From the NCBI GenBank assembly GCA_000004985.1, contig GG738846.1: DNA of 64,000 bases; one strand, 5' to 3'. Source of the stretch: Naegleria gruberi. Its lineage: Eukaryota. The notes under the pieces were generated by a model. The model saw only the letters and a list, made by a program, of their open reading frames with translations, had not been told where the DNA came from and ran no database searches. Each line of letters opens with the position of its first letter. Within the stretch, counting starts at the first letter, position 1. Positions 1 to 11,674 of the stretch are shown piece by piece. A program made the translations under genes and the position numbers.

Positions 1-692
1 ATGGAACTTTTCAATTTTCTAGATTTTCCTCTGAAACCATATGCTTGATCTTGTAATTGTTCTGTTCTTTCTACGAGAGTTTCTAATTTTTCTCCTCTCT
101 CAATAACTTTGTCAATATTTGAAATCATTACATCTTTGGTGGCATCTATTTGATTTTTAAGTTTGTAAATTTTATCATTTTCAAAATTATTGTAATGAGC
201 CATTCTATCTTTAATAATACTTGAAACAGCCTTATAGGTTTGATTTCCAAAACTGTTGTTACTAAAACCTTGTCTCTTAAATTGTGTTTCTACATCATCA
301 ATAAAATTATAACAAATTCTCATTGGACATTCTGCATCGGAACAAACAAGAAAAAGATATTTGTTATCCACAACTTTGTAATGAAAATTAAATGTTGCTT
401 GTGTTAGTGTTCGTTTGTGATTAACATGAGAAATCTTTTCTCCAATACTTAGACAAGTTTGTCTAATAATTTGAGCGTGTTGATGACTTGTCCCTGAAAA
501 ACTTCCAACAAAATTTCCATTACTTATTGTCAATCCACGAAAATATTCTCCAATTAAAATACACGATGATGATGAATCGGTAGAGGAAGCATTAGGATTT
601 GATGTATAATATTCAGATGAATCAATGGCATCCTTGAAAACAGATATGAGTCCATAAACAAGTTGTGCCGGAGAAGAGGAGGATGAAGACAT
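1..692 (-). CDS. Longin-domain R-SNARE, VAMP7-like. Partial: the 3' part of the gene, encoding the transmembrane anchor, runs off the window start.
   Basis: Reverse-strand ORF from the ATG at 692 (A-rich context) with no stops down to position 1. The N-terminal longin segment reads FNFHYKVVDNKYLFLVCSDAE, close to VAMP7 YLFHYICQDRIVYLCITDDDF. The SNARE motif reads NIDKVIERGEKLETLVERTEQL, with the zero-layer Arg in RGEKLE matching VAMP7 RGERLELLIDKTENL. It is missing from the ORF track only because it reaches the window edge. Confidence 0.6.
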   Translation of the reverse strand, partial: MSSSSSSPAQLVYGLISVFKDAIDSSEYYTSNPNASSTDSSSSCILIGEYFRGLTISNGNFVGSFSGTSHQHAQIIRQTCLSIGEKISHVNHKRTLTQATFNFHYKVVDNKYLFLVCSDAECPMRICYNFIDDVETQFKRQGFSNNSFGNQTYKAVSSIIKDRMAHYNNFENDKIYKLKNQIDATKDVMISNIDKVIERGEKLETLVERTEQLQDQAYGFRGKSRKLKSS

Positions 693-893: not shown

Positions 894-1043
894 AAATTTA
901 TATGACCTCGGTTGGATATTTGAATAGTAATTAAAGGTTCTTAATTTAAAAAAAACAGACAAACAATGTTTCTTATTTGATACTATAGTAATGAACAAGT
1001 ATTCTTGTGTTGGGATTATTTATAATCTAATTTGTGGAAAAGG
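894..1043. repeat. Copy A of a roughly 155 bp dispersed repeat (other copies at 4757-4919 and 6888-7050).
   Basis: Shared core TGTTTCTTATTTGATACTATAGTAATGAACAAGTATTCTTGTGTTGGGATTATTTATAATCYAATTTGTGGAAAAGG, preceded by AAATTTATWTGACCTC..TAATTAA..TTAATTTAAAAAAAA. The three copies are near-identical in the core and diverged in the 5' half. Confidence 0.6.
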
Positions 1044-4000
1044 GATTCAAGGAATGCCCTGTTGATTTTGGATAACGTTTTTAAGAATTTGTTATTATTG
1101 GATTTGCAAAATTATATTCTCCAAACAAGATTAATGAAAGTCCTAGCCTAGTTTAAAGATGGGAGGGTAAGAGGAATCTTGGTATTCATTTATTTAGACG
1201 ATTATTAAATCATTCAAAAGATCAGTTTATCTTGATTAGTTCTAAAGGATTTAGAAAAATTTGATTCCTCATTCAAAAAGACAAACGTTGCGAAAAAAAG
1301 AAACCTCTTCTCCACTCATGTGTAAAATAATATTCTCTCCCCACTCGTGGGAAATGTAATGTTTTTTAAAAGAAAACCAATAATAAACCAATAAATAAAG
1401 CCCATTCTACAACTTCTACCTATTAGGTAGTATGTAACTTGGTTGCTGCTTTATTCAACAACAACAAACCTCAAAAAACCAAATCCACTACCAAAACAAA
1501 AACACTTCCAAATATTTCCACTACAACAATAAAACACCTTACCTTCTCTTCATGAATGCCTATAGCTATTTCCATCAAGAAATTACTTAAGGATATGTTT
1601 ATTAGTAGAGATGGTAATTAGTTGTACACTTTTGTAAATAGAAAGGAAGTTTAATGAACAACAATACAATAGTTTTAAATCACCTCATCCTAACAAGAAT
1701 ATAATGAGAAAAGTGAAAAAAACTTACCCAGCAACGATAATTCCATAGCCTTAACAAGAGAAGGGATTGGAATAAGAAGAATTATAATAAAAATAGTACC
1801 GTGGATCTTAGAAATCACAATTTGAAGAATCAGTAAAGCCCAATATTTCGTAATTTTCTAACCAACACCCCTAAATTTCTACCTCTCCTCCCCACTTGTA
1901 CTCTTTTTGCATACCTAGGAGTTTTGTTAGACGTTTATTAAAGTTTAGTAAAAATTTTAGAAGACAAAAAGATTACAGCTTTAAATTAAAGGTTTATCAA
2001 CAAAATAAAGTGTCGTTTCTGAAATACTAAATTTATTCTTCTCACACGCGTGTAGATTAATTCGCAAGAATAATAATAATAAATAATGATTGAGGATATC
2101 AACTTTTGTATAATATATAAACTCTAATACTTCTAATGGTTGCAACTAGCCTAAAAAACCATCTACTCAATTCAAAAAACTTTAAAAAACCATAAAAACA
2201 AATCTGAAATATCTGTAGTGCTTTAAATTTAAAATAAACACACAAATCATATAAAAAATTGTTAAAATTTTCATATATTTGATTAAGAAACCAGGTTAAT
2301 AATGATCCTATCTTGTTCCTGATAATGATATCCACTTAATATCTACCAAGCAATACTACAAAAGCTATTGCTTTACATAATTGGCTATCCAAATGGAAAT
2401 GTCATTTGACCAAATTATCTGTCACCTAATTGGATATGATTAAATGAAATCCAATAAAATAATAAATTATTAAAAAATTATTGACTTACTAGCCTACATA
2501 AGCTTAACGCTTACTGCGAATAAATAAGTATGTTAATATATTTCTAGAGAATGAAAATTCATTCCAATTTCCAACTCTCAGTACATTGAAGGGCTGGTAA
2601 AATTGTTTCAAATAACTTTAAGCATCATTGGATACTTTGAATCTAGCATCATCAGAACTTGTAAAAGAGTTTCATTTGAGTTTTTCAATCACGAAATCTT
2701 TCGAAAGCTCTGGTCTTTTGAACTCCTCAACTTTTCTTGGCTTGATGATTGTAAGGTTCAAGTTTTTTCTCTTTCTGGGTGGAGTGATGTTTTTCTGGAT
2801 TTTTTCTTGTTTCACACTTTTTTTCTTGTTCCTGTTTAATTCTTAATTCAGAATATGGTGTTTCATTAAGATTTTCTTCTACTTCCTCAACATCTTCCGT
2901 TCCATCAACAATAGAATCAGCAAGATTAGGGAATGTTTTAACTTCAGCAAATGCAGTAAAGAAAAAGTTGACATCAGGAAAAAGAAAGCTTCAATAAATG
3001 TGCAGGAAAGGTTTAAACATTTCTTGAATTATGCTCAAACAAATTTCAAAAATTGCTCAAACATTTTTCAAACCACTTTTTTAAAAAGGCGCCTTTTTAT
3101 TTCTTTTTGACTTTTCCGAAAATCTAATCTTCTTAATTAGGTTGAAGATTTTTAAAAATTAATGGTCTTTTTTATTTTATATTACTTTAAACCTAGAAAC
3201 TCTATTAAACGCTATGAGGAATGGATTTGTTTTCGATTGTAACTTACAAAATAAAGTGAATATTTTCGCTTATTAAGTATATCAGAACCACCTTGATTCC
3301 GAGTTGTTAAAAATTTTCGATGCTCAAAAAATTATTAGAAATGTCTGGCAATAACAAAAAAAGAAATCCACAAAAGAAACAACACTCTCCAAGTTCAAGA
3401 CTTGCTCAATAAAGATTTACATCCTTCAAACACCATACTAAACCAAACGGTACTAAGATCCACCATTGATTGATACTGGTGATGTTAAAGACTGTATTTA
3501 CCTCAACCATTACCATAATCACTACCTTCAAAATCAGCAATAATTGAGAATACTACAAACAAATTATCATCCTCGAATGTTGCTTTATCCAGGATCATCA
3601 ATCACCTAATAAATCAAAGAACCCCAAGATATTGTCAATAGCGTACACCAAGAAAAGGTTATGCCGACAATAGCGTAACCTTTTCTTAGTGACGAATCAA
3701 AGAACCCCAAGACATTGTGGCAAAGATCTGAAACACTGTTGTGTGATATCTTTGAAAAACCATCCGCTCTTAGTTGGTGCTTACTTCATTTTTAGAATTT
3801 TTGTAAATTCTCCTTGTCGAATAGATAAACGAAAGTCAAATGAAACGAAAGATATTTAATCAGAGGATTTCCTCTTACTACGATGATCATAGAACCGGCA
3901 GCTAACAGTCAATGGCATAACCTTTTCTTAGTACGTTATCACTTTATCAAGACGTTTTGTTCGTTTAATGGAAACATGTTTTTCTTTTCCCCGGTCAACA

Positions 4001-4756
4001 ATTTTGATCCAAATATTCCCTTCCTAATACTTATTTCCTTTGGATCATAAAAATTTTCTGTATAATAAGTTTTCTCCTTTTCATCAAACATTGGTTTCAG
4101 TGATCGTTCAAACTCATCCAATGACATAACAAAATGTATTTCGAAGTTGTCTTAGATGTAATGTCAATCTTGTTGCGTAGGTTCGAAATATTGTTGGCAC
4201 ACAAAAGAACAATCATCAAACAAAGGTTCGTTGATGTGGAGTTTTATAATTTTAGTAGTAATTTTTTTTTGATCAATATCAAAATTGGGATTCTCTTAAT
4301 ATGCAATACCTTAAAACTCGTCTTACAATCCTAAAACTAAATACTTTATAGTGAGTGGTAATATAATTTCTCCTCTATTCAAATGTATCAAACAAAAAAC
4401 TGCTCTGAATAAATCTTAATACCTAAAAACAGCAATAACAAGGCTACAAACTACCTAAGAATAGGTAGATGTTATAGTGTGAGGAATTCCATAACTCAGA
4501 AAGCGAGAATATTAATATCCAATATCTATCCCAAACCGCTTTTTTAGGATATGGCTTTTTAAAAAGGGCAATCTGGTTGAATTTTTACTTATTTATGGCT
4601 ATGGAATTTTATAAAATATATTGTTTCTAGGGATGTAGTGACATGTGTCCTCCTACCAATAATCCAATAACAATATCAACCACTATTAAGGATTTTTGGA
4701 ACAATTTTACGTATTGTGGTAAATTTCTAGATTTGTAAATTAAAAGAAATATCTAG

Positions 4757-4919
4757 AAATTTATTTGACCTCAGTAATTACATTTATATGTTATGCAATG
4801 GTAATTAATTTAAAAAAAAAAGACAAACAATTCTGCAAACATTGTTTCTTATTTGATACTATAGTAATGAACAAGTATTCTTGTGTTGGGATTATTTATA
4901 ATCCAATTTGTGGAAAAGG
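4757..4919. repeat. Dispersed repeat copy B (inside duplication unit 1).
   Basis: Same core as copy A, plus an 11 bp insertion ATTCTGCAAAC. It lies about 270 bp upstream of the lipid-kinase ORF. Confidence 0.6.
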
Positions 4920-5052
4920 TACCTATTTTATTAGTTGATCATCACGATCCATTATTACTTTATAAAAACAATTTCAATTAAACCTTAAATTGTATAATAA
5001 TTGATTTAAAGGAAAGGCAGAAGATGTTTTCCAACGAATAATATTTCCCAAA

Positions 5053-5524
5053 TTGCATGATCATTTCACAACTAAAAATCAAATTCCGATGCAGTACATG
5101 AAAACCCAATGCAGAGATGATGGCGTGAGATGTGCATTTGAATTGGTGACCAAATATCAATGTGATTTACTTTTTGGAATTGGAGGTGATGGCAGTCTGG
5201 GAAGTGTACTAAACGGATTGATTTTAGGTTGTCTACATTTGAATCCAAATGTTCTCAACTCAGAGGAATCATCAAGGCAACTCCCAGTCCATTTAGGAGT
5301 AATACCCAGTGGTACAGGAAATGATTTTGTTAGAACTCTATTGGAAACATCTGGAGATTACTATTTGGACATAGTTGATGGTTTTGAAAATGGATATTTT
5401 GAGGATAGTGTCAGTAAAATTGTGGACATGATCATTTCTGATAGCAAGACGATACCTATTGATGTTGGAAGAATGGATTATACTCCATCATCAATTGATG
5501 AGGAATTTTCTAATGGGAATGATA
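5053..5524 (+). pseudogene. Truncated duplicate of the 5' part of the lipid-kinase gene (DAGK catalytic domain). It is cut off by the N-gap, so it is either an assembly or haplotype copy or a partial duplicate.
   Basis: Identical to the first 157 codons of the 7184-8239 ORF except one Y-to-C difference. The ORF runs straight into the N run at 5525. Confidence 0.5.
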
Positions 5525-5584
5525 CGACTGGAGGNNNNNNNNNNNNNNNNNNNNNNNNNNNNNNNNNNNNNNNNNNNNNNNNNN
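5525..5584. other. Assembly gap (60 N).
   Basis: A run of n characters in the sequence. Confidence 1.
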
Positions 5585-7655
5585 AATAGAGTGAATATTT
5601 TCGCTTATTAAGTATATCAGAACCACCTTGATTCCGAGTTGTTAAAAATTTTCGATGCTCAAAAAATTATTAGAAATGTCTGGCAATAACAAAAAAAGAA
5701 ATCCACAAAAGAAACAACACTCTCCAAGTTCAAGACTTGCTCAATAAAGATTTACATCCTTCAAACACCATACTAAACCAAACGGTACTAAGATCCACCA
5801 TTGATTGATACTGGTGATGTTAAAGACTGTATTTACCTCAACCATTACCATAATCACTACCTTCAAAATCAGCAATAATTGAGAATACTACAAACAAATT
5901 ATCATCCTCGAATGTTGCTTTATCCAGGATCATCAATCACCTAATAAATCAAAGAACCCCAAGATATTGTCAATAGCGTACACTAAGAAAAGGTTATGCC
6001 GACAATAGCATAACCTTTTCTTAGTGACGAATCAAAGAACCCCAAGATATTGTCAATGGCATAACCTTTTCTTAGTACGTTATCACTTTATCAAGACGTT
6101 TTGTTCGTTTAATGGAAACATGTTTTTCTTTTCCCCGGTCTACAATTTTGATCCAAATATTCCCTTCCTAATACTTATTTCCTTTGATTTCATAAAAATT
6201 TTCAGTATAATAAGTTTTCTCCTTTTCATCAAACACTGGTTTCAATGATCGTTCAAACTCATCCAATGACATAACAAAATGTATTTCGAAGTTGTCTTAA
6301 ATGTAATGTCAATCTTGTTGCGTAGGTTCGAAATATTGTTGGCACACAAAAGAACAATCATCAAACAAAGGTTCGTTGATGTGGAGTTTTATAATTTTAG
6401 TAGTAATTTTTTTTGATCAATATCAAAATTGGGATTCTCTTAATATGCAATACCTTAAAACTCGTCTTACAATCCTAAAACTAAATACTTTATAGTGAGT
6501 GGTAATATAATTTCTCCTCTATTCAAATGTATCAAACAAAAAACTGCTCTGAATAAATCTTAATACCTAAAAACAGCAATAACAAGGCTACAAACTACCT
6601 AAGAATAGGTAGATGTTATAGTGTGAGGAATTCCATAACTCAGAAAGCGAGAATATTAATATCCAATATCTATCCCAAACCGCTTTTTTAGGATATGGCT
6701 TTTTAAAAAGGGCAATCTGGTTGAATTTTTACTTATTTATGGCTATGGAATTTTATAAAATATATTGTTTCTAGGGATGTAGTGACATGTGTCCAATAAC
6801 AATACATCAACCACTATTAAGGATTTTTGGAACAATTTTACGTATTGTGGTAAATTTCTAGATTTGTAAATTAAAAGAAATATCCAGAAATTTATTTGAC
6901 CTCAGTAATTACATTTATATGTTATGCAATGGTAATTAATTTAAAAAAAAAAGACAAGCAATTCTGCAAACATTGTTTCTTATTTGATACTATAGTAATG
7001 AACAAGTATTCTTGTGTTGGGATTATTTATAATCCAATTTGTGGAAAAGGTACCTATTTTATTAGTTGATCATCACGATCCATTATTACTTTATAAAAAC
7101 AATTTCAATTAAACCTTAAATTGTGTAATAATTGATTTAAAGGAAAGGCAGAAGATGTTTTCCAACGAATAATATTTCCCAAATTGCATGATCATTTCAC
7201 AACTAAAAATCAAATTCCGATGCAGTGCATGAAAACCCAATGCAGAGATGATGGCGTGAGATGTGCATTTGAATTGGTGACCAAATATCAATGTGATTTA
7301 CTTTTTGGAATTGGAGGTGATGGCAGTCTGGGAAGTGTACTAAACGGATTGATTTTAGGTTGTCTACATTTGAATCCAAATGTTCTCAACTCAGAGGAAT
7401 CATCAAGGCAACTCCCAGTCCATTTAGGAGTAATACCCAGTGGTACAGGAAATGATTTTGTTAGAACTCTATTGGAAACATCTGGAGATTACTATTTGGA
7501 CATAGTTGATGGTTTTGAAAATGGATATTTTGAGGATAGTGTCAGTAAAATTGTGGACATGATCATTTCTGATAGCAAGACGATACCTATTGATGTTGGA
7601 AGAATGGATTATACTCCATCATCAATTGATGAGGAATTTTCTAATGGGAATGATA
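5585..7655. repeat. Unit 2 of the tandem duplication.
   Basis: Matches 3226-5524; see unit 1. Confidence 0.8.
6888..7050. repeat. Dispersed repeat copy C (inside duplication unit 2).
   Basis: Near-identical to copy B. Confidence 0.6.
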
Positions 7656-8239
7656 CGACTGGAGTGAAACTGAAAGATTGTAATGAGATGATGAAAAGCC
7701 GATTCTTCCTTAATGCATCAACGATTGGTATTGGTCCAGAGATTTTAAAGAGTGTCAATGATCCAAATTCTTTCCTTCCTAAGAGTTTACAATATTATAT
7801 TCAACCAATATTGAAAGAGTTCACATATAAAAATCCACTACTTGAATTGGATATTACAAGCGAAAAGAAGATTTGCAAAAAGATGCAACTAGTCATTGTT
7901 TCCAATGGGAGGTATGTCAATAACGGATTCAAAATGAATCCATTTGCAAGTTTAACCAATAACCAACTTGATTTGTGCATTGTTGAGGATGTTGGTGTAT
8001 TTGATTTACATCTTTTCTATTACCTCAAATATGGAACTCATTTGAATTATCCTAAAGTCATTATGGAAAGCACAAAAAGTCTCACTGTTGATACTAAAGA
8101 ATGTGTATTCGTTGAATGTGATGGTGATGTTATTGGGATGTTACCAGTGATGTACAAAGTAATGCCATCAGTGGTGAATGTTCTGGTTCCAAAAAGTTTC
8201 ACCCCAACAGCTGCAAATAATAAATTAAATATTAATTAA
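7184..8239 (+). CDS. Lipid kinase with a diacylglycerol-kinase catalytic (DAGK_cat) domain, sphingosine/ceramide-kinase-like. The 5' end is uncertain: the first in-frame ATG is at 7220, and upstream exons may exist.
   Basis: Motifs DLLFGIGGDGSLGSVLNGL (GGDG) and GVIPSGTGNDF are characteristic of the DAGK/sphingosine kinase catalytic fold. The usual N-terminal NPxSGG-type segment is not in the ORF; an in-frame stop at 7133 limits any upstream extension without splicing. Confidence 0.55.
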   Translation: MHDHFTTKNQIPMQCMKTQCRDDGVRCAFELVTKYQCDLLFGIGGDGSLGSVLNGLILGCLHLNPNVLNSEESSRQLPVHLGVIPSGTGNDFVRTLLETSGDYYLDIVDGFENGYFEDSVSKIVDMIISDSKTIPIDVGRMDYTPSSIDEEFSNGNDTTGVKLKDCNEMMKSRFFLNASTIGIGPEILKSVNDPNSFLPKSLQYYIQPILKEFTYKNPLLELDITSEKKICKKMQLVIVSNGRYVNNGFKMNPFASLTNNQLDLCIVEDVGVFDLHLFYYLKYGTHLNYPKVIMESTKSLTVDTKECVFVECDGDVIGMLPVMYKVMPSVVNVLVPKSFTPTAANNKLNIN

Positions 8240-8412
8240 TTAAAACAACACTCGGTGCTTTAATGATCTTCAACCGATGAGCGTTAAATTCTGGCGTGTA
8301 TTCTTCGGTAAAAGTTTTTATTGTAAAATATCCCATTTGTTAGGGTGAGCAAAATTGAAAAAATTCTTGTTGAAAAAAAAAGACAGTCACTCTATCTTCC
8401 ACTCCACTCACT

Positions 8413-9456
8413 ATGTCTACCTCTTTCATTTATAAGGGTCAATTGACCGGTCACAACGGTATGTTGATAACACAATTTTAATACTGATGAACATTATATA
8501 TTTGCTTCCATACATTTAATACAAATTATTAATATGTATAATTATTATTAATATAATATTTTTCTAAAGGTTGGGTCACTTGTTTGTCCACCTCTGCTGC
8601 CAATCCAAACATCTTGGTTTCTGGTTCCCGTGATAAGTCTATTGTTGTCTGGGAATTGACTAAGGAACAAGGTGCTTATGGTGTTCCAAAGAGATCCCTC
8701 ACTGGTCACGCTCACTATGTCTCTGACATCTGTATGACCGCTGATGCTCAATATGTCTTGTCTGGTTCTTGGGATAAGACTCTCAGATTGTGGAATTTGA
8801 GCAATGGTAACTGTGAAAGAAACTTCTTGGGTCACACCAACGATATCTTGTCTGTTTCCTTCTCTCACGATGACAGACAAATCGTCTCTGGTTCCCGTGA
8901 TAAGACCATCAAGTTGTGGAACACTTTGGGTGAATGCAAGTACAACATTACCGATAAGGGTCACAAGGAATGGGTCAGTTGTGTTAGATTCGTTGCCAAC
9001 AAGGAAAAGCCATTGATCATTTCTGCTGGTTGGGACAAGATTGTCAAGTTGTGGGATTTGTCCACTTGTACCTTGAACACCAATTTGGTTGGTCACACTG
9101 GTTACATTAACTCTGTCTGTGTTTCTCCTGATGCTTCCTTGTGTGCTTCTGGTGGTAAGGACGGTGTTGCCGTTTTGTGGGATTTGACTAAGGGTGAACA
9201 CTTGTATCACTTGCCTTTGGATGGTAACGATGTTATCAATGCTTTGGCTTTCTCCCCAACTAAGTACTGGTTGTGTGCTGCTACTGATAATTGTATCAAG
9301 ATCTGGGACCTCCAATCCAAGACTGTCCTCGCTGAATTGGTTCCTGAATCAAAGGGTAACAAGAAGCCAGCTTGTATTTCTCTTGCCTGGTCTGCTGATG
9401 GTACTACTTTGTTCTCTGGTTACACTGATAACACCATCCGTGTCTGGGGTTGTTAA
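8413..9456 (+). CDS. RACK1: RACK1 (Gbeta-like WD40 ribosomal scaffold, Asc1/Cpc2 orthologue). Two exons: 8413-8458 and 8570-9456.
   Basis: Exon 1 reads [16 protein letters not shown], then a GTATGT donor and a 111 bp AT-rich intron ending ...CTAAAG. The split Gly codon is restored, giving GWVTCLST... The spliced 310-aa product aligns along its whole length with RACK1 (WD repeats, GHxxxV..., [12 protein letters not shown]). Confidence 0.85.
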
Positions 9457-9629: not shown

Positions 9630-11674
9630 ATGTCATCAACACTATCACCAGCAACATCAAATCGTATGGAAAGGGATGCCATGGCTAGTGCTCAAGCCAA
9701 ACAAAAGATGGTTTCGTTTCATAAGAATTTATTGAGCCCTACAACAATTTCGCAAGACGAAAGTAAGAGAAGAAAATCCTCACCTCCACCCATACTTAAA
9801 AAAGAACCGAATCAAGAATTACCCAGAAAGAGAATACTCTCAATCGCAAGCGGTACGGATGAATTACATAAGCAGTCGGCAAGTGGTCTCATTTCCAATC
9901 TAGTCTCACAATTAGAAAAACAGGGAAAAACAACTGAGCAAAGTGTTGTTGTAAACAACAATTCAAAACCAATTTCAAAAAAGCTAAATGAAATGAGTAA
10001 TGAAAATTCATCATGTTCAATTAATGGTGTGATGCAACTTGTTTCTGATATTGTAAAATTATGTGAATTTTTAAAAGATTCAAAATTGAAAAAAAATGGA
10101 CAATTAATTTATGACAGATTATCTCATATTAAGGTAAGTTTTGTTTTTTTACATTACGGACTCTAAAATTAAAATTACAGGATGAAATTACAAATTGGGA
10201 TAAGAAAATTGATGAAAATGATGAAAAAATTTCCAAGGCTATTCATTTATTGAAATCTCAACTTGGTGATGTCTATCAATTATTGTTGAAAATACAAAAG
10301 AGTAATTGGTTTGTAGATTTGAGATTTGCAAAAAAGGCCAAAAAATTAACAAATGAATTAGATAATGTGACAACGTTATTGGGTTTAAGTATTTCCTATC
10401 TTAAATCTTCAAAGGAAACTATTGATATTAATGTTTATGAGGTTGACCATAGAAATAACTTGGCATTGGAAGGTGACAAGTATTATTTAGGACATGGAGT
10501 GAGTCAAAATTATGAAACAGCTTTCAACTTCTATTTACAAGCAGCCAATCTAGACGAACCAAGATGTCAATACATTATTGGGACTATGCACATTGAAGGA
10601 AAGGGAATTGAGCAGAATGGAAGAAAAGGAGTCAAATGGATTCTCAAATCTTCAATGCAAAATTACGCAGATGCTCTTAATCAGATGGGTATTTACTATG
10701 AGAAGGGATTCATTGTTGAAGTTAATTATCCACTTGCAGCAAAATTCTATTGTAAAGCTAGTCAATTGTCACATTTGGATGGTATGACAAATTATGCCGC
10801 TTTCCTTAGACAAGGAAAAGGAACTGAGAAGAATATTCAAAAAGCACTATCACTTCTCATAAAGGCTTGTGAGAAGAATTACGATAAGGCTCAAAATGAA
10901 TTGGGATTCATGTACTATAAGGGATTAGGAGTTGATCAAAATACAAAGCAAGCAGTTGAATTATTTACAATGGCAGCAGATAGGGGGAATGCGGTAGCTC
11001 TGAATAATCTTGGAATATCCTATGAGGATGGCATGGGTGTGGTTAGAGATTATGCCAAGGCAACTGTGTGTTATGAACAATCTGTAGAGCTTGGTAATGT
11101 AAATGCACTCAACAATTTAGGATATATTAAATTGTTACAACATGATTATGAGAGTGCATTGGATTTGTTTCATAAGGCAGCTGATAGATGTAGTGCAGAT
11201 GCCATGTATAATCTTTCAAATGTTTACAGAAAGGGATTAGGGGTGAGTGCAGACATTTCAATCTCAATCAAATATTTACACAAAGCTGCTGCTAATGGTC
11301 ATGTCAAATCTCAAAAAATGTTGGGAGATTTGTTCTATTCTGGTTTGGAAAATGTTGTCGAGAAGGATAAGAAACAAGCAGCAAGCTTCTACTATAAGGC
11401 TGGTGTTAATGGTGATGCAGAGAGTTGTAACTCTCTTGGATGCATGTATGAGGATGGATGTGAAGATGTTTTAGAGAGAAATGAAGAAACAGCTTTTAAA
11501 TGGTTCAGAAAAGCCTCTGATTTGGGCTCAGAGAATGGAATGGTCAACCTGGCGAGCATTTACGAGAGGAGAAACCAAACAGATCAAGCTGTCAAGCTTC
11601 TCAAAAGAGCTTCATCACTGGGTAATCAAAAAGCACTTGAAAAATTAGAATCCTTCTCCAAGTTCAATATGTAA
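9630..11674 (+). CDS. Sel1-repeat (TPR-like) protein of about 666 aa. Two exons: 9630-10133 and 10181-11674.
   Basis: The two ORFs are in the same frame after removing a 47 bp intron (GTAAGT...AAATTACAG). The C-terminal two-thirds is a run of Sel1 repeats (...ALNNLGISYEDGMGV..., ...AMYNLSNVYRKGLGV..., ...NSLGCMYEDGCED...). Confidence 0.6.

What the first reader, a model, noticed from the sequence alone, without database searches (positions are those of the whole stretch)
3226..7655. A 2.3 kb tandem duplication bracketing an N-gap, with haplotype-like divergence
3226-5524 and 5585-7655 are the same sequence at about 98-99% identity. Differences are SNPs (for example TAC versus TGC in the kinase ORF), a roughly 13 bp indel (4651-4663) and a 214 bp indel (3701-3914). 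The first copy stops exactly at a 60-N gap, and the second begins immediately after it. The duplicated block includes a dispersed repeat and the first 157 codons of the lipid-kinase gene, so the window appears to contain a truncated second copy of that gene. This pattern is typical of two alleles of a heterozygous region assembled in tandem. It could also be a real recent segmental duplication.
Basis: seen in the sequence. Interest (0 to 1): 0.5.

Follow-up and report, generated by a model that had tools for sequence, protein, structure and literature searches.

The report
Two alleles misassembled as tandem duplication
The apparent 2.1-2.3 kb tandem duplication is most likely an assembly artefact: two neighbouring contigs of the heterozygous amoeba Naegleria gruberi overlap at their ends as two alleles of one locus and were laid end to end across a 50-N placeholder gap, so it is ordinary and there is probably only one lipid-kinase gene.

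Summary
The repeat is really in the sequence, but the coordinates need correcting. Copy 1 is 3250-5534 (2285 nt), the gap is 5535-5584 (50 N, not 60), and copy 2 is 5585-7665 (2081 nt). Over 2077 aligned columns there are 15 mismatches (99.3% identity). The indels are 191, 15, 2, 1 and 1 nt.

The window is Naegleria gruberi NEG-M; the kinase is NAEGRDRAFT_62024. This species is reported as a heterozygous diploid with mosaic heterozygosity.

The homology runs to the last base before the gap and from the first base after it. This is a dovetail overlap of two contig ends, the "duplicated overlapping contigs" or "heterotype false duplication" signature. All solid differences lie inside 3649-5096. 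Both overlap ends are clean for about 400-440 nt, roughly one Sanger read, apart from a mismatch at each extreme contig tip. Differences avoid the coding sequence. Only one protein is annotated, and it comes from copy 2.

Read depth and mate pairs could not be examined, so a real recent duplication whose junction is hidden in the gap is not excluded (about 8%).

Verdict: assembly artefact, about 0.88 confidence, low interest.

The parts
3250..5534 (+). Copy 1, the 3' end of the left contig (allele A of the locus). It is 2285 nt and ends at the last base before the N run.
   Evidence: Local alignment; repeat families D1-D4 and D6; end bases.
5535..5584 (.). Scaffold gap of exactly 50 N, the only N run in the window. 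Most likely a placeholder between two contigs that actually overlap.
   Evidence: The placeholder reading is an inference.
5585..7665 (+). Copy 2, the 5' end of the right contig (allele B of the same locus). It is 2081 nt and starts at the first base after the N run. The contig continues into unique sequence, the rest of the kinase gene.
3717..3907 (+). A 191-nt segment present only in copy 1. It interrupts the third copy of a short local motif (AATCAAAGAACCCCAAGAYATTGTCAAT...) that is intact in copy 2.
4648..4662 (+). A 15-nt segment present only in copy 1, in a CCAATAA-type local repeat. A 2-nt indel follows 12 nt later.
4867..5534 (+). Lipid-kinase gene fragment in copy 1: exon 1 at 4867-4918, intron, then exon 2 from 5012. 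The reading frame stays open for 191 codons until the gap cuts it. It has Y at residue 46.
6998..8239 (+). Complete lipid-kinase gene: exon 1 at 6998-7049 and exon 2 at 7143-8239, 382 aa, with DAGK_cat and YegS_C domains. The annotated model NAEGRDRAFT_62024 (339 aa) starts at the internal MQC... (C at residue 46 of the 382-aa model, the copy 2 state) and lacks exon 1.
894..1043 (+). An older, contiguous partial copy of the kinase promoter/5' leader plus exon 1. Identity is 81% overall, and 98% over the last 84 nt. It ends one base past the exon 1 boundary and has no GT donor. It is not part of the artefact. It shows what a real duplication at this locus looks like: no gap and substantial divergence.

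Best explanation
This is a heterotype false duplication. In the sequenced Naegleria gruberi NEG-M clone the locus is heterozygous across roughly 3649-5096. The two alleles differ by 13 SNPs and by indels of 191, 15, 2, 1 and 1 nt.

Inferred mechanism: the whole-genome shotgun assembler did not merge reads from the two alleles. Allele A reads stayed attached to the shared sequence on the left, forming the left contig, which ends at 5534. Allele B reads stayed attached to the shared sequence on the right, forming the right contig, which starts at 5585. Each contig runs on for less than one read length into sequence that is identical in both alleles.

The scaffolder then ordered the two contigs correctly. 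It could not represent a negative gap, so it wrote them end to end with a 50-N spacer. In the real genome each chromosome copy carries one block and one kinase gene. The 'truncated second kinase copy' is the other allele of the same gene (Y46 versus C46).

Shown here: the dovetail geometry, the kinds and positions of the differences, the identity of the organism, and the single annotated protein. Inferred: the behaviour of the assembler and scaffolder, and that the two copies have half depth.
For: 1. Copy 1 ends at the last base before the only N run in 64 kb, and copy 2 starts at the first base after it. The alignment therefore runs to both contig ends, as in a dovetail overlap.
2. The only mismatches within about 400 nt of those ends are the last base of the left contig and the fifth base of the right contig. 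Contig-tip consensus is least reliable there. All 17 other difference events lie in 3649-5096. The overlap ends are clean for 399 and 438 nt. If differences were spread evenly, P is about 1.6e-4, though this test was chosen after seeing the data. This is the expected picture when allele-specific reads reach up to one Sanger read into homozygous flanks.
3. The 191-nt and 15-nt indels rule out simple sequencing error and fit allelic structural variants.
4. Differences avoid coding sequence: 1 of 19 events falls in the 575 coding nt out of 2077 aligned (P = 0.018; SNPs alone P = 0.068).
5. The window is N. gruberi NEG-M. The species is described as a heterozygous diploid (PMC9928731) with mosaic heterozygosity (PMC6201504, citing the genome paper).
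6. [quoted passage not shown] A gap between the copies is a listed hallmark of false duplications and was not found for true duplications (PMC9516828).
7. The protein collection holds only one cluster for this kinase. Its NCBI member starts MQC..., the copy 2 state at residue 46, and no copy 1 product appears.
8. The one undoubtedly real duplication at this locus (894-1043) lies inside a contig and is far more diverged.
Against: - No reads, depth or mate-pair data could be examined, so the two defining tests (half coverage, mate-pair consistency after merging) are untested.
- No second assembly of NEG-M could be reached.
- The only independent sequence, ENA contig L001, is 1.66 kb from a related strain. 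It does not reach the left boundary of the block.
- A true tandem duplication whose junction happened to be unassemblable would also place a gap between the copies.
- The even-spread and coding-sequence tests are post hoc and modest.
- That 50 N is this assembly's minimum or placeholder gap is my assumption. It was not checked on other gaps.
Confidence: 0.88

Rival explanations
1. A real, very recent tandem segmental duplication of a 2.1-2.3 kb unit (upstream non-coding DNA, the kinase promoter, exon 1 and half of exon 2). Its head-to-tail junction could not be assembled and is hidden in the 50-N gap. The genome would then carry a truncated 5' kinase fragment upstream of the intact gene.
For: - Two copies are present in one scaffold in direct orientation.
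- This locus has been duplicated in part at least once before, as the relic at 894-1043 shows.
- The indels could have arisen after duplication.
- Nothing available here measures copy number.
Against: - Both contigs would have to break exactly at the unit boundaries, to the base. Junction reads would be unique sequence and should have carried the left contig into the next unit; no such extension is seen.
- Differences are absent from both ends of the unit and sparse in the coding part. A dead truncated copy would not be expected to show this.
- In comparable Sanger assemblies, most end-overlapping neighbouring contigs were artefacts (PMC2864568).
- True duplications examined by Ko et al. lacked the intervening gap (PMC9516828).
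Confidence: 0.08
2. A homotype false duplication. The same haplotype was assembled twice because of read errors or a failed overlap, so there is no real sequence difference behind the two copies.
For: The geometry is the same, with a gap between the copies and overlap running to the contig ends. The two mismatches at the contig tips look like read-end errors.
Against: A 191-nt indel, a 15-nt indel and 13 internal substitutions in multi-read Sanger consensus are far more than error can produce. At three sites covered by the related-strain contig L001, L001 carries the copy 1 state once and the copy 2 state twice. Both states therefore exist in nature and are not random errors.
Confidence: 0.02

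Closest known systems
Duplicated overlapping contigs (DOCs), the false segmental duplications described by Kelley & Salzberg 2010 (PMC2864568)
   Same: Two neighbouring contigs in one scaffold align only at their facing ends at high identity. Each carries unique sequence on its outer side. The data are Sanger shotgun reads from a heterozygous diploid. The duplicated part contains exons, while only one transcript or protein is known.
   Different: Their call rests on mate-pair distances improving after the contigs are merged, and that could not be tested here. Their cases are vertebrates; this one is a heterolobosean amoeba.
Heterotype false duplication / false gene gain (Vertebrate Genomes Project; Ko et al. 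2022, PMC9516828)
   Same: An assembly gap lies between the copies. The differences are haplotype-type, SNPs plus indels. The region sits at the border between heterozygous and homozygous sequence. A gene is partly duplicated as a result.
   Different: Half read depth, haplotype-specific k-mers in the reads and discordant read pairs are defining criteria there, and none can be tested with these tools. Here the extra copy was not annotated as a gene, so no false gene gain entered the proteome.
Recent tandem segmental duplication
   Same: Direct orientation, adjacency and about 99% identity.
   Different: No sequenced junction. The copies are not within one contig. Homology ends exactly at the contig ends. 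Differences are not spread evenly along the unit.
Soluble DAGK_cat lipid kinases of the YegS/BmrU/DgkB type (this concerns the gene inside the block, not the duplication)
   Same: Pfam DAGK_cat (PF00781) and YegS_C (PF19279) both score above their cut-offs. The best solved-structure matches are bacterial DgkB (2qv7) and BmrU (3t5p). The N-terminal NPxxGxG-type motif is encoded by exon 1.
   Different: Identity to the nearest non-Naegleria sequences found is only 22-25%. The gene has a spliceosomal-type intron. Substrate and activity are unknown and were not tested.

Membership tests
Duplicated overlapping contigs / heterotype false duplication | The two copies lie on different contigs of one scaffold, adjacent to each other and separated by an assembly gap. 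| tested here: met
   The only N run (5535-5584) lies exactly between copy 1 and copy 2.
Duplicated overlapping contigs / heterotype false duplication | The alignment extends to the facing ends of both contigs (dovetail), with unique sequence only on the outer sides. | tested here: met
   Copy 1 ends at 5534 and copy 2 starts at 5585. The bases at both tips align apart from one mismatch each.
Duplicated overlapping contigs / heterotype false duplication | The differences are of haplotype type (SNPs plus indels), not sequencing noise. | tested here: met
   There are 15 mismatches and indels of 191, 15, 2, 1 and 1 nt. Both states at three sites are seen across copy 1, copy 2 and the related-strain contig L001.
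Duplicated overlapping contigs / heterotype false duplication | The sequenced organism is heterozygous. | tested here: met
   Organism identified as N. gruberi NEG-M. The literature describes it as a heterozygous diploid with mosaic heterozygosity (PMC9928731; PMC6201504). This rests on the literature, not on a measurement made here.
Duplicated overlapping contigs / heterotype false duplication | Each copy has about half the genome-wide read depth. | not testable with these tools
   No reads are available.
Duplicated overlapping contigs / heterotype false duplication | Mate-pair or long-read distances fit better after the two contigs are merged. | not testable with these tools
   No paired reads or long reads are available.
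Duplicated overlapping contigs / heterotype false duplication | Transcripts or proteins contain only one copy of the duplicated exons. | tested here: inconclusive
   Only one protein cluster exists for this kinase, and its NCBI member has the copy 2 residue. No transcript data were examined.
True tandem segmental duplication | A sequenced head-to-tail junction, with the end of the unit joined to the start of the unit in contiguous sequence. | tested here: not met
   The place where the junction would be is the 50-N gap. The left contig's end matches only 7566-7665, not the start of the unit.
True tandem segmental duplication | Full diploid read depth over both copies. | not testable with these tools
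   No reads are available.
True tandem segmental duplication | Divergence accumulates along the whole unit, including its ends and the non-functional gene fragment. | tested here: not met
   All 17 internal events lie in 3649-5096. The clean ends are 399 and 438 nt long (P about 1.6e-4, post hoc). Only 1 of 19 events is in coding sequence (P = 0.018).
YegS/BmrU/DgkB-type lipid kinase (the gene in the block) | DAGK_cat catalytic domain plus a YegS_C beta-sandwich domain, both above Pfam cut-offs. | tested here: met
   PF00781 scores 56.7 bits (cut-off 23.6). PF19279 scores 67.4 bits (cut-off 27).
YegS/BmrU/DgkB-type lipid kinase (the gene in the block) | Lipid kinase activity. | not testable with these tools
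   This needs biochemistry.

The most novel reading that the evidence does not exclude
The duplication is real. In that case N. gruberi NEG-M very recently duplicated, in tandem, a 2.1-2.3 kb unit carrying the promoter, exon 1 and half of exon 2 of its YegS-like lipid kinase. Together with the older relic at 894-1043, the 5' end of this gene would then be a recurrent duplication hotspot. It would produce a promoter-bearing truncated gene copy that encodes only part of the catalytic domain.
Probability: 0.08. Interest if true: 0.15.

Novelty: not a real feature. Interest (0 to 1): 0.06.

Why it matters
The main value is housekeeping.
- Anyone counting gene copies, segmental duplications or repeats in the N. 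gruberi reference should treat 3250-5534 and 5585-7665 as one locus. The two sequences give a ready-made pair of phased alleles, about 0.7% SNP divergence plus a 191-nt and a 15-nt indel, for a strain whose heterozygosity has been used to argue for sex.
- The annotated kinase model (339 aa) appears to lack its first exon.
- If the artefact reading were wrong, this would be a small, young tandem duplication of little wider consequence.

Tried and rejected
- A second assembly or genomic context for NEG-M. The NCBI protein P0034 is not in the gene-position index. I therefore could not sample other gaps of this assembly to see whether 50-N gaps with overlapping flanks recur.
- JGI metagenome scans. 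An exact 24-mer from the block gave nothing. The kinase protein gave no relatives.
- The ENA contig L001, 1661 nt from a related strain. It covers only 4759-5533 / 6890-8406, so it says nothing about copy number. It matches copy 1 at one of three differing sites and copy 2 at two. An outgroup would show such a mix under either hypothesis, so I did not use it to discriminate, only to show that the variant states are real.
- A transposable-element explanation for the block or for the 191-nt insert. There are no other copies in the window, no terminal inverted or direct repeats, no ORF above 78 aa, no Pfam hit for the 62-aa ORF and no Rfam family.
- The genome paper (Cell 2010) and the 2011 review are not held. 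No numerical heterozygosity for NEG-M could be quoted.
- The relic as a processed retrocopy or an alternative first exon. There is no similarity to exon 2 after the exon 1 boundary, and no GT donor.
Full report
**Observation**

The window has a single N run, 5535-5584, of exactly 50 N. A local alignment of the sequence to its left against the sequence to its right gives one collinear match. Window 3250-5534 (2285 nt) matches 5585-7665 (2081 nt). There are 2077 aligned columns, 15 mismatches (99.28% identity) and five indels:
- 191 nt (3717-3907), present only in copy 1
- 15 nt (4648-4662), present only in copy 1
- 2 nt, 1 nt and 1 nt

The repeat finder reports this block as the only long repeat in the 64 kb.

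The numbers need correcting:
- The gap is 50 N, not 60.
- Copy 1 starts at 3250, not 3226, and ends at 5534, not 5524.
- Copy 2 ends at 7665, not 7655.
- The large indel is 191 nt, not 214.
- The TAC/TGC difference is at 5096/7227.

**Source and gene content**

The block contains the 5' part of a two-exon gene. In copy 2, exon 1 is 6998-7049 and exon 2 is 7143-8239, giving 382 aa. The protein has Pfam DAGK_cat and YegS_C domains above their cut-offs. Its nearest solved relatives are bacterial DgkB and BmrU.

A search of the large protein collection returned one cluster at 100% identity. Everything else was bacterial YegS/BmrU-type kinases at 22-25% identity. The 100% cluster contains XP_002682720.1 / NAEGRDRAFT_62024 of Naegleria gruberi, on a 1,001,995-nt scaffold. 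The window is therefore from the N. gruberi NEG-M reference.

The annotated model is 339 aa and starts at MQC... inside exon 2. C is the copy 2 state at residue 46 of my 382-aa model, so the model comes from copy 2. It also lacks exon 1, which encodes the start of the DAGK_cat domain; the Pfam match begins at residue 9 of my model.

Copy 1 carries exon 1 (4867-4918) and exon 2 from 5012. Its frame stays open for 191 codons until the gap, with one amino-acid difference, Y46 versus C46. No separate protein for copy 1 appears in the collection.

**Geometry**

Copy 1 ends at the last base before the Ns, and copy 2 begins at the first base after them. The last 12 bases of the left contig are TACGACTGGAGG. 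The homologous bases in the right contig are TACGACTGGAGT, and the right contig then runs on into the rest of exon 2. The first 12 bases of the right contig are AATAGAGTGAAT. The homologous bases in the left contig are AATAAAGTGAAT, and the left contig extends further upstream.

The homology therefore runs to both contig tips, with one mismatch at each tip, where consensus quality is poorest. This is a dovetail overlap of two contigs that the scaffold presents as adjacent.

A true tandem duplication would need both contigs to break exactly at the unit boundaries. Reads across a real head-to-tail junction would be unique sequence, so they would be expected to carry the left contig into the next unit. 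No such extension exists. The left contig's end matches only 7566-7665.

**Distribution of the differences**

Leaving aside the two tip mismatches, all 17 difference events lie between 3649 and 5096. The overlap is identical for 399 nt at its left end and 438 nt at its right end. If events were spread evenly, the chance of this is about 1.6e-4. The test was chosen after seeing the data, so I treat it as supportive only.

This pattern is what the overlapping-contig mechanism predicts. Reads carrying an allele-specific variant extend up to one Sanger read into flanks that are identical in both alleles, and the contig stops there.

Differences also avoid coding sequence. One of 19 events falls in the 575 coding nt out of 2077 (P = 0.018; SNPs alone P = 0.068). 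That fits alleles under purifying selection better than a dead truncated copy. The 191-nt and 15-nt indels are too large to be consensus errors, so this is not one haplotype assembled twice.

**Outside evidence**

Kelley and Salzberg define 'duplicated overlapping contigs'. These are neighbouring contigs that each contain matching heterozygous sequence plus homozygous sequence on opposite ends, and that align only at their ends. In three Sanger shotgun vertebrate assemblies, 80-97% of such pairs were mis-assembled haplotypes by mate-pair analysis (PMC2864568).

Ko et al. list the hallmarks of false duplications: half read depth, a gap between the copies, discordant pairs and haplotype-specific k-mers. 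They did not find the gap property for true duplications (PMC9516828).

N. gruberi is described as a heterozygous diploid (PMC9928731) with mosaic heterozygosity (PMC6201504). Both papers cite the genome paper, which is not in the held library.

**Independent sequence**

The only other sequence of this locus I could reach is a 1661-nt ENA metagenome contig, L001, from a close relative at about 99% identity. It covers window 6890-8406 and 4759-5533.

At the three sites in this stretch where the copies differ, L001 has the copy 2 state twice and the copy 1 state once. This shows the variant states are real, but an outgroup would give such a mix under either hypothesis. L001 does not reach the left boundary, so it cannot settle copy number.

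Attempts to reach the NEG-M scaffold elsewhere, or environmental relatives, all failed.

**Verdict**

The best explanation is a heterotype false duplication. Two alleles of one heterozygous locus ended up at the facing ends of neighbouring contigs and were written in tandem across a 50-N spacer (confidence 0.88). Merging them gives a single locus with a single kinase gene and two phased alleles.

A real recent tandem duplication with its junction hidden in the gap remains possible (0.08). Read depth, spanning clones or long reads, or a simple outward-facing PCR would decide. Predicted flanking-PCR products are about 2.57 and 2.37 kb for the artefact and at least about 4.65 kb for a real duplication. 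A same-haplotype artefact is very unlikely (0.02).

That 50 N is the placeholder gap length of this assembly is my assumption and was not checked.

**Other things at the locus**

A third, older copy of the kinase promoter/5' leader and exon 1 lies at 894-1043. Identity is 81% over 163 nt, and 98% over the last 84 nt. It sits inside a contig, about 200 nt from the start codon of a divergently oriented longin R-SNARE gene (3-692, minus strand). It stops one base past the exon 1 boundary and has no splice donor.

The left edge of this roughly 160-nt module is also where L001 stops matching the window. The module therefore has three different left flanks. I could not explain this. It is a real, older partial duplication, and it shows by contrast what a genuine duplication looks like here.

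Noticed in passing
window 894-1043 (compare 4757-4919 and 6888-7050): An older partial copy of the kinase 5' module, about 100 nt upstream of the ATG plus all of exon 1. Identity is 81% overall and 98% over the last 84 nt. It ends one base past the exon 1/intron 1 boundary, has a CCA>CTA change and no GT donor. It lies about 200 nt from the start codon of the divergent R-SNARE gene. The 3.7 kb between it and the real exon 1 has no ORF above 78 aa and no clear transposon features. Origin unresolved.
   Followed up: partly
window 6998-7049 + 7143-8239: The annotated kinase model NAEGRDRAFT_62024 (339 aa) starts at an internal Met (MQC...) in exon 2. A two-exon model of 382 aa adds 43 N-terminal residues that include the NPxxGxG-type start of the DAGK_cat domain; the Pfam match begins at residue 9. 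The reference annotation is probably truncated at the N-terminus.
   Followed up: partly
window 6998-8239 (protein): In a 5.8-billion-protein collection, the nearest relatives of this kinase outside Naegleria are bacterial YegS/BmrU-type lipid kinases at only 22-25% identity. The best solved structures are bacterial DgkB and BmrU. The gene nevertheless has an intron. I did not test whether this reflects old gene transfer, fast evolution or database bias.
   Followed up: no
L001 1-155 versus window about 4762 / 6893: The ENA metagenome contig (ERZ929261, a close N. gruberi relative, about 99% identity) matches the window from about 105 nt upstream of the kinase ATG onwards. Its first 155 nt match nothing in the window. 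The kinase upstream region therefore differs structurally between strains at the same breakpoint as the relic copy.
   Followed up: partly
window 3612-3932 (and 5947-6076): A cluster of short repeats. The motif AATCAAAGAACCCCAAGAYATTGTCAAT(A/G)GC(G)TAACCTTTTCTTAGT occurs in direct copies, together with a 19-nt hairpin (3646-3664 / 3673-3691). The 191-nt copy 1-specific insert sits inside the last motif copy, flanked by GT on both sides.
   Followed up: partly
window 3-692 (-), 8413-9456 (+), 10250-11674 (+): Neighbouring genes: a longin plus synaptobrevin R-SNARE, a two-exon RACK1-like WD40 protein directly downstream of the kinase, and a Sel1-repeat protein. All are ordinary eukaryotic genes, which fits a normal chromosomal region.
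   Followed up: partly
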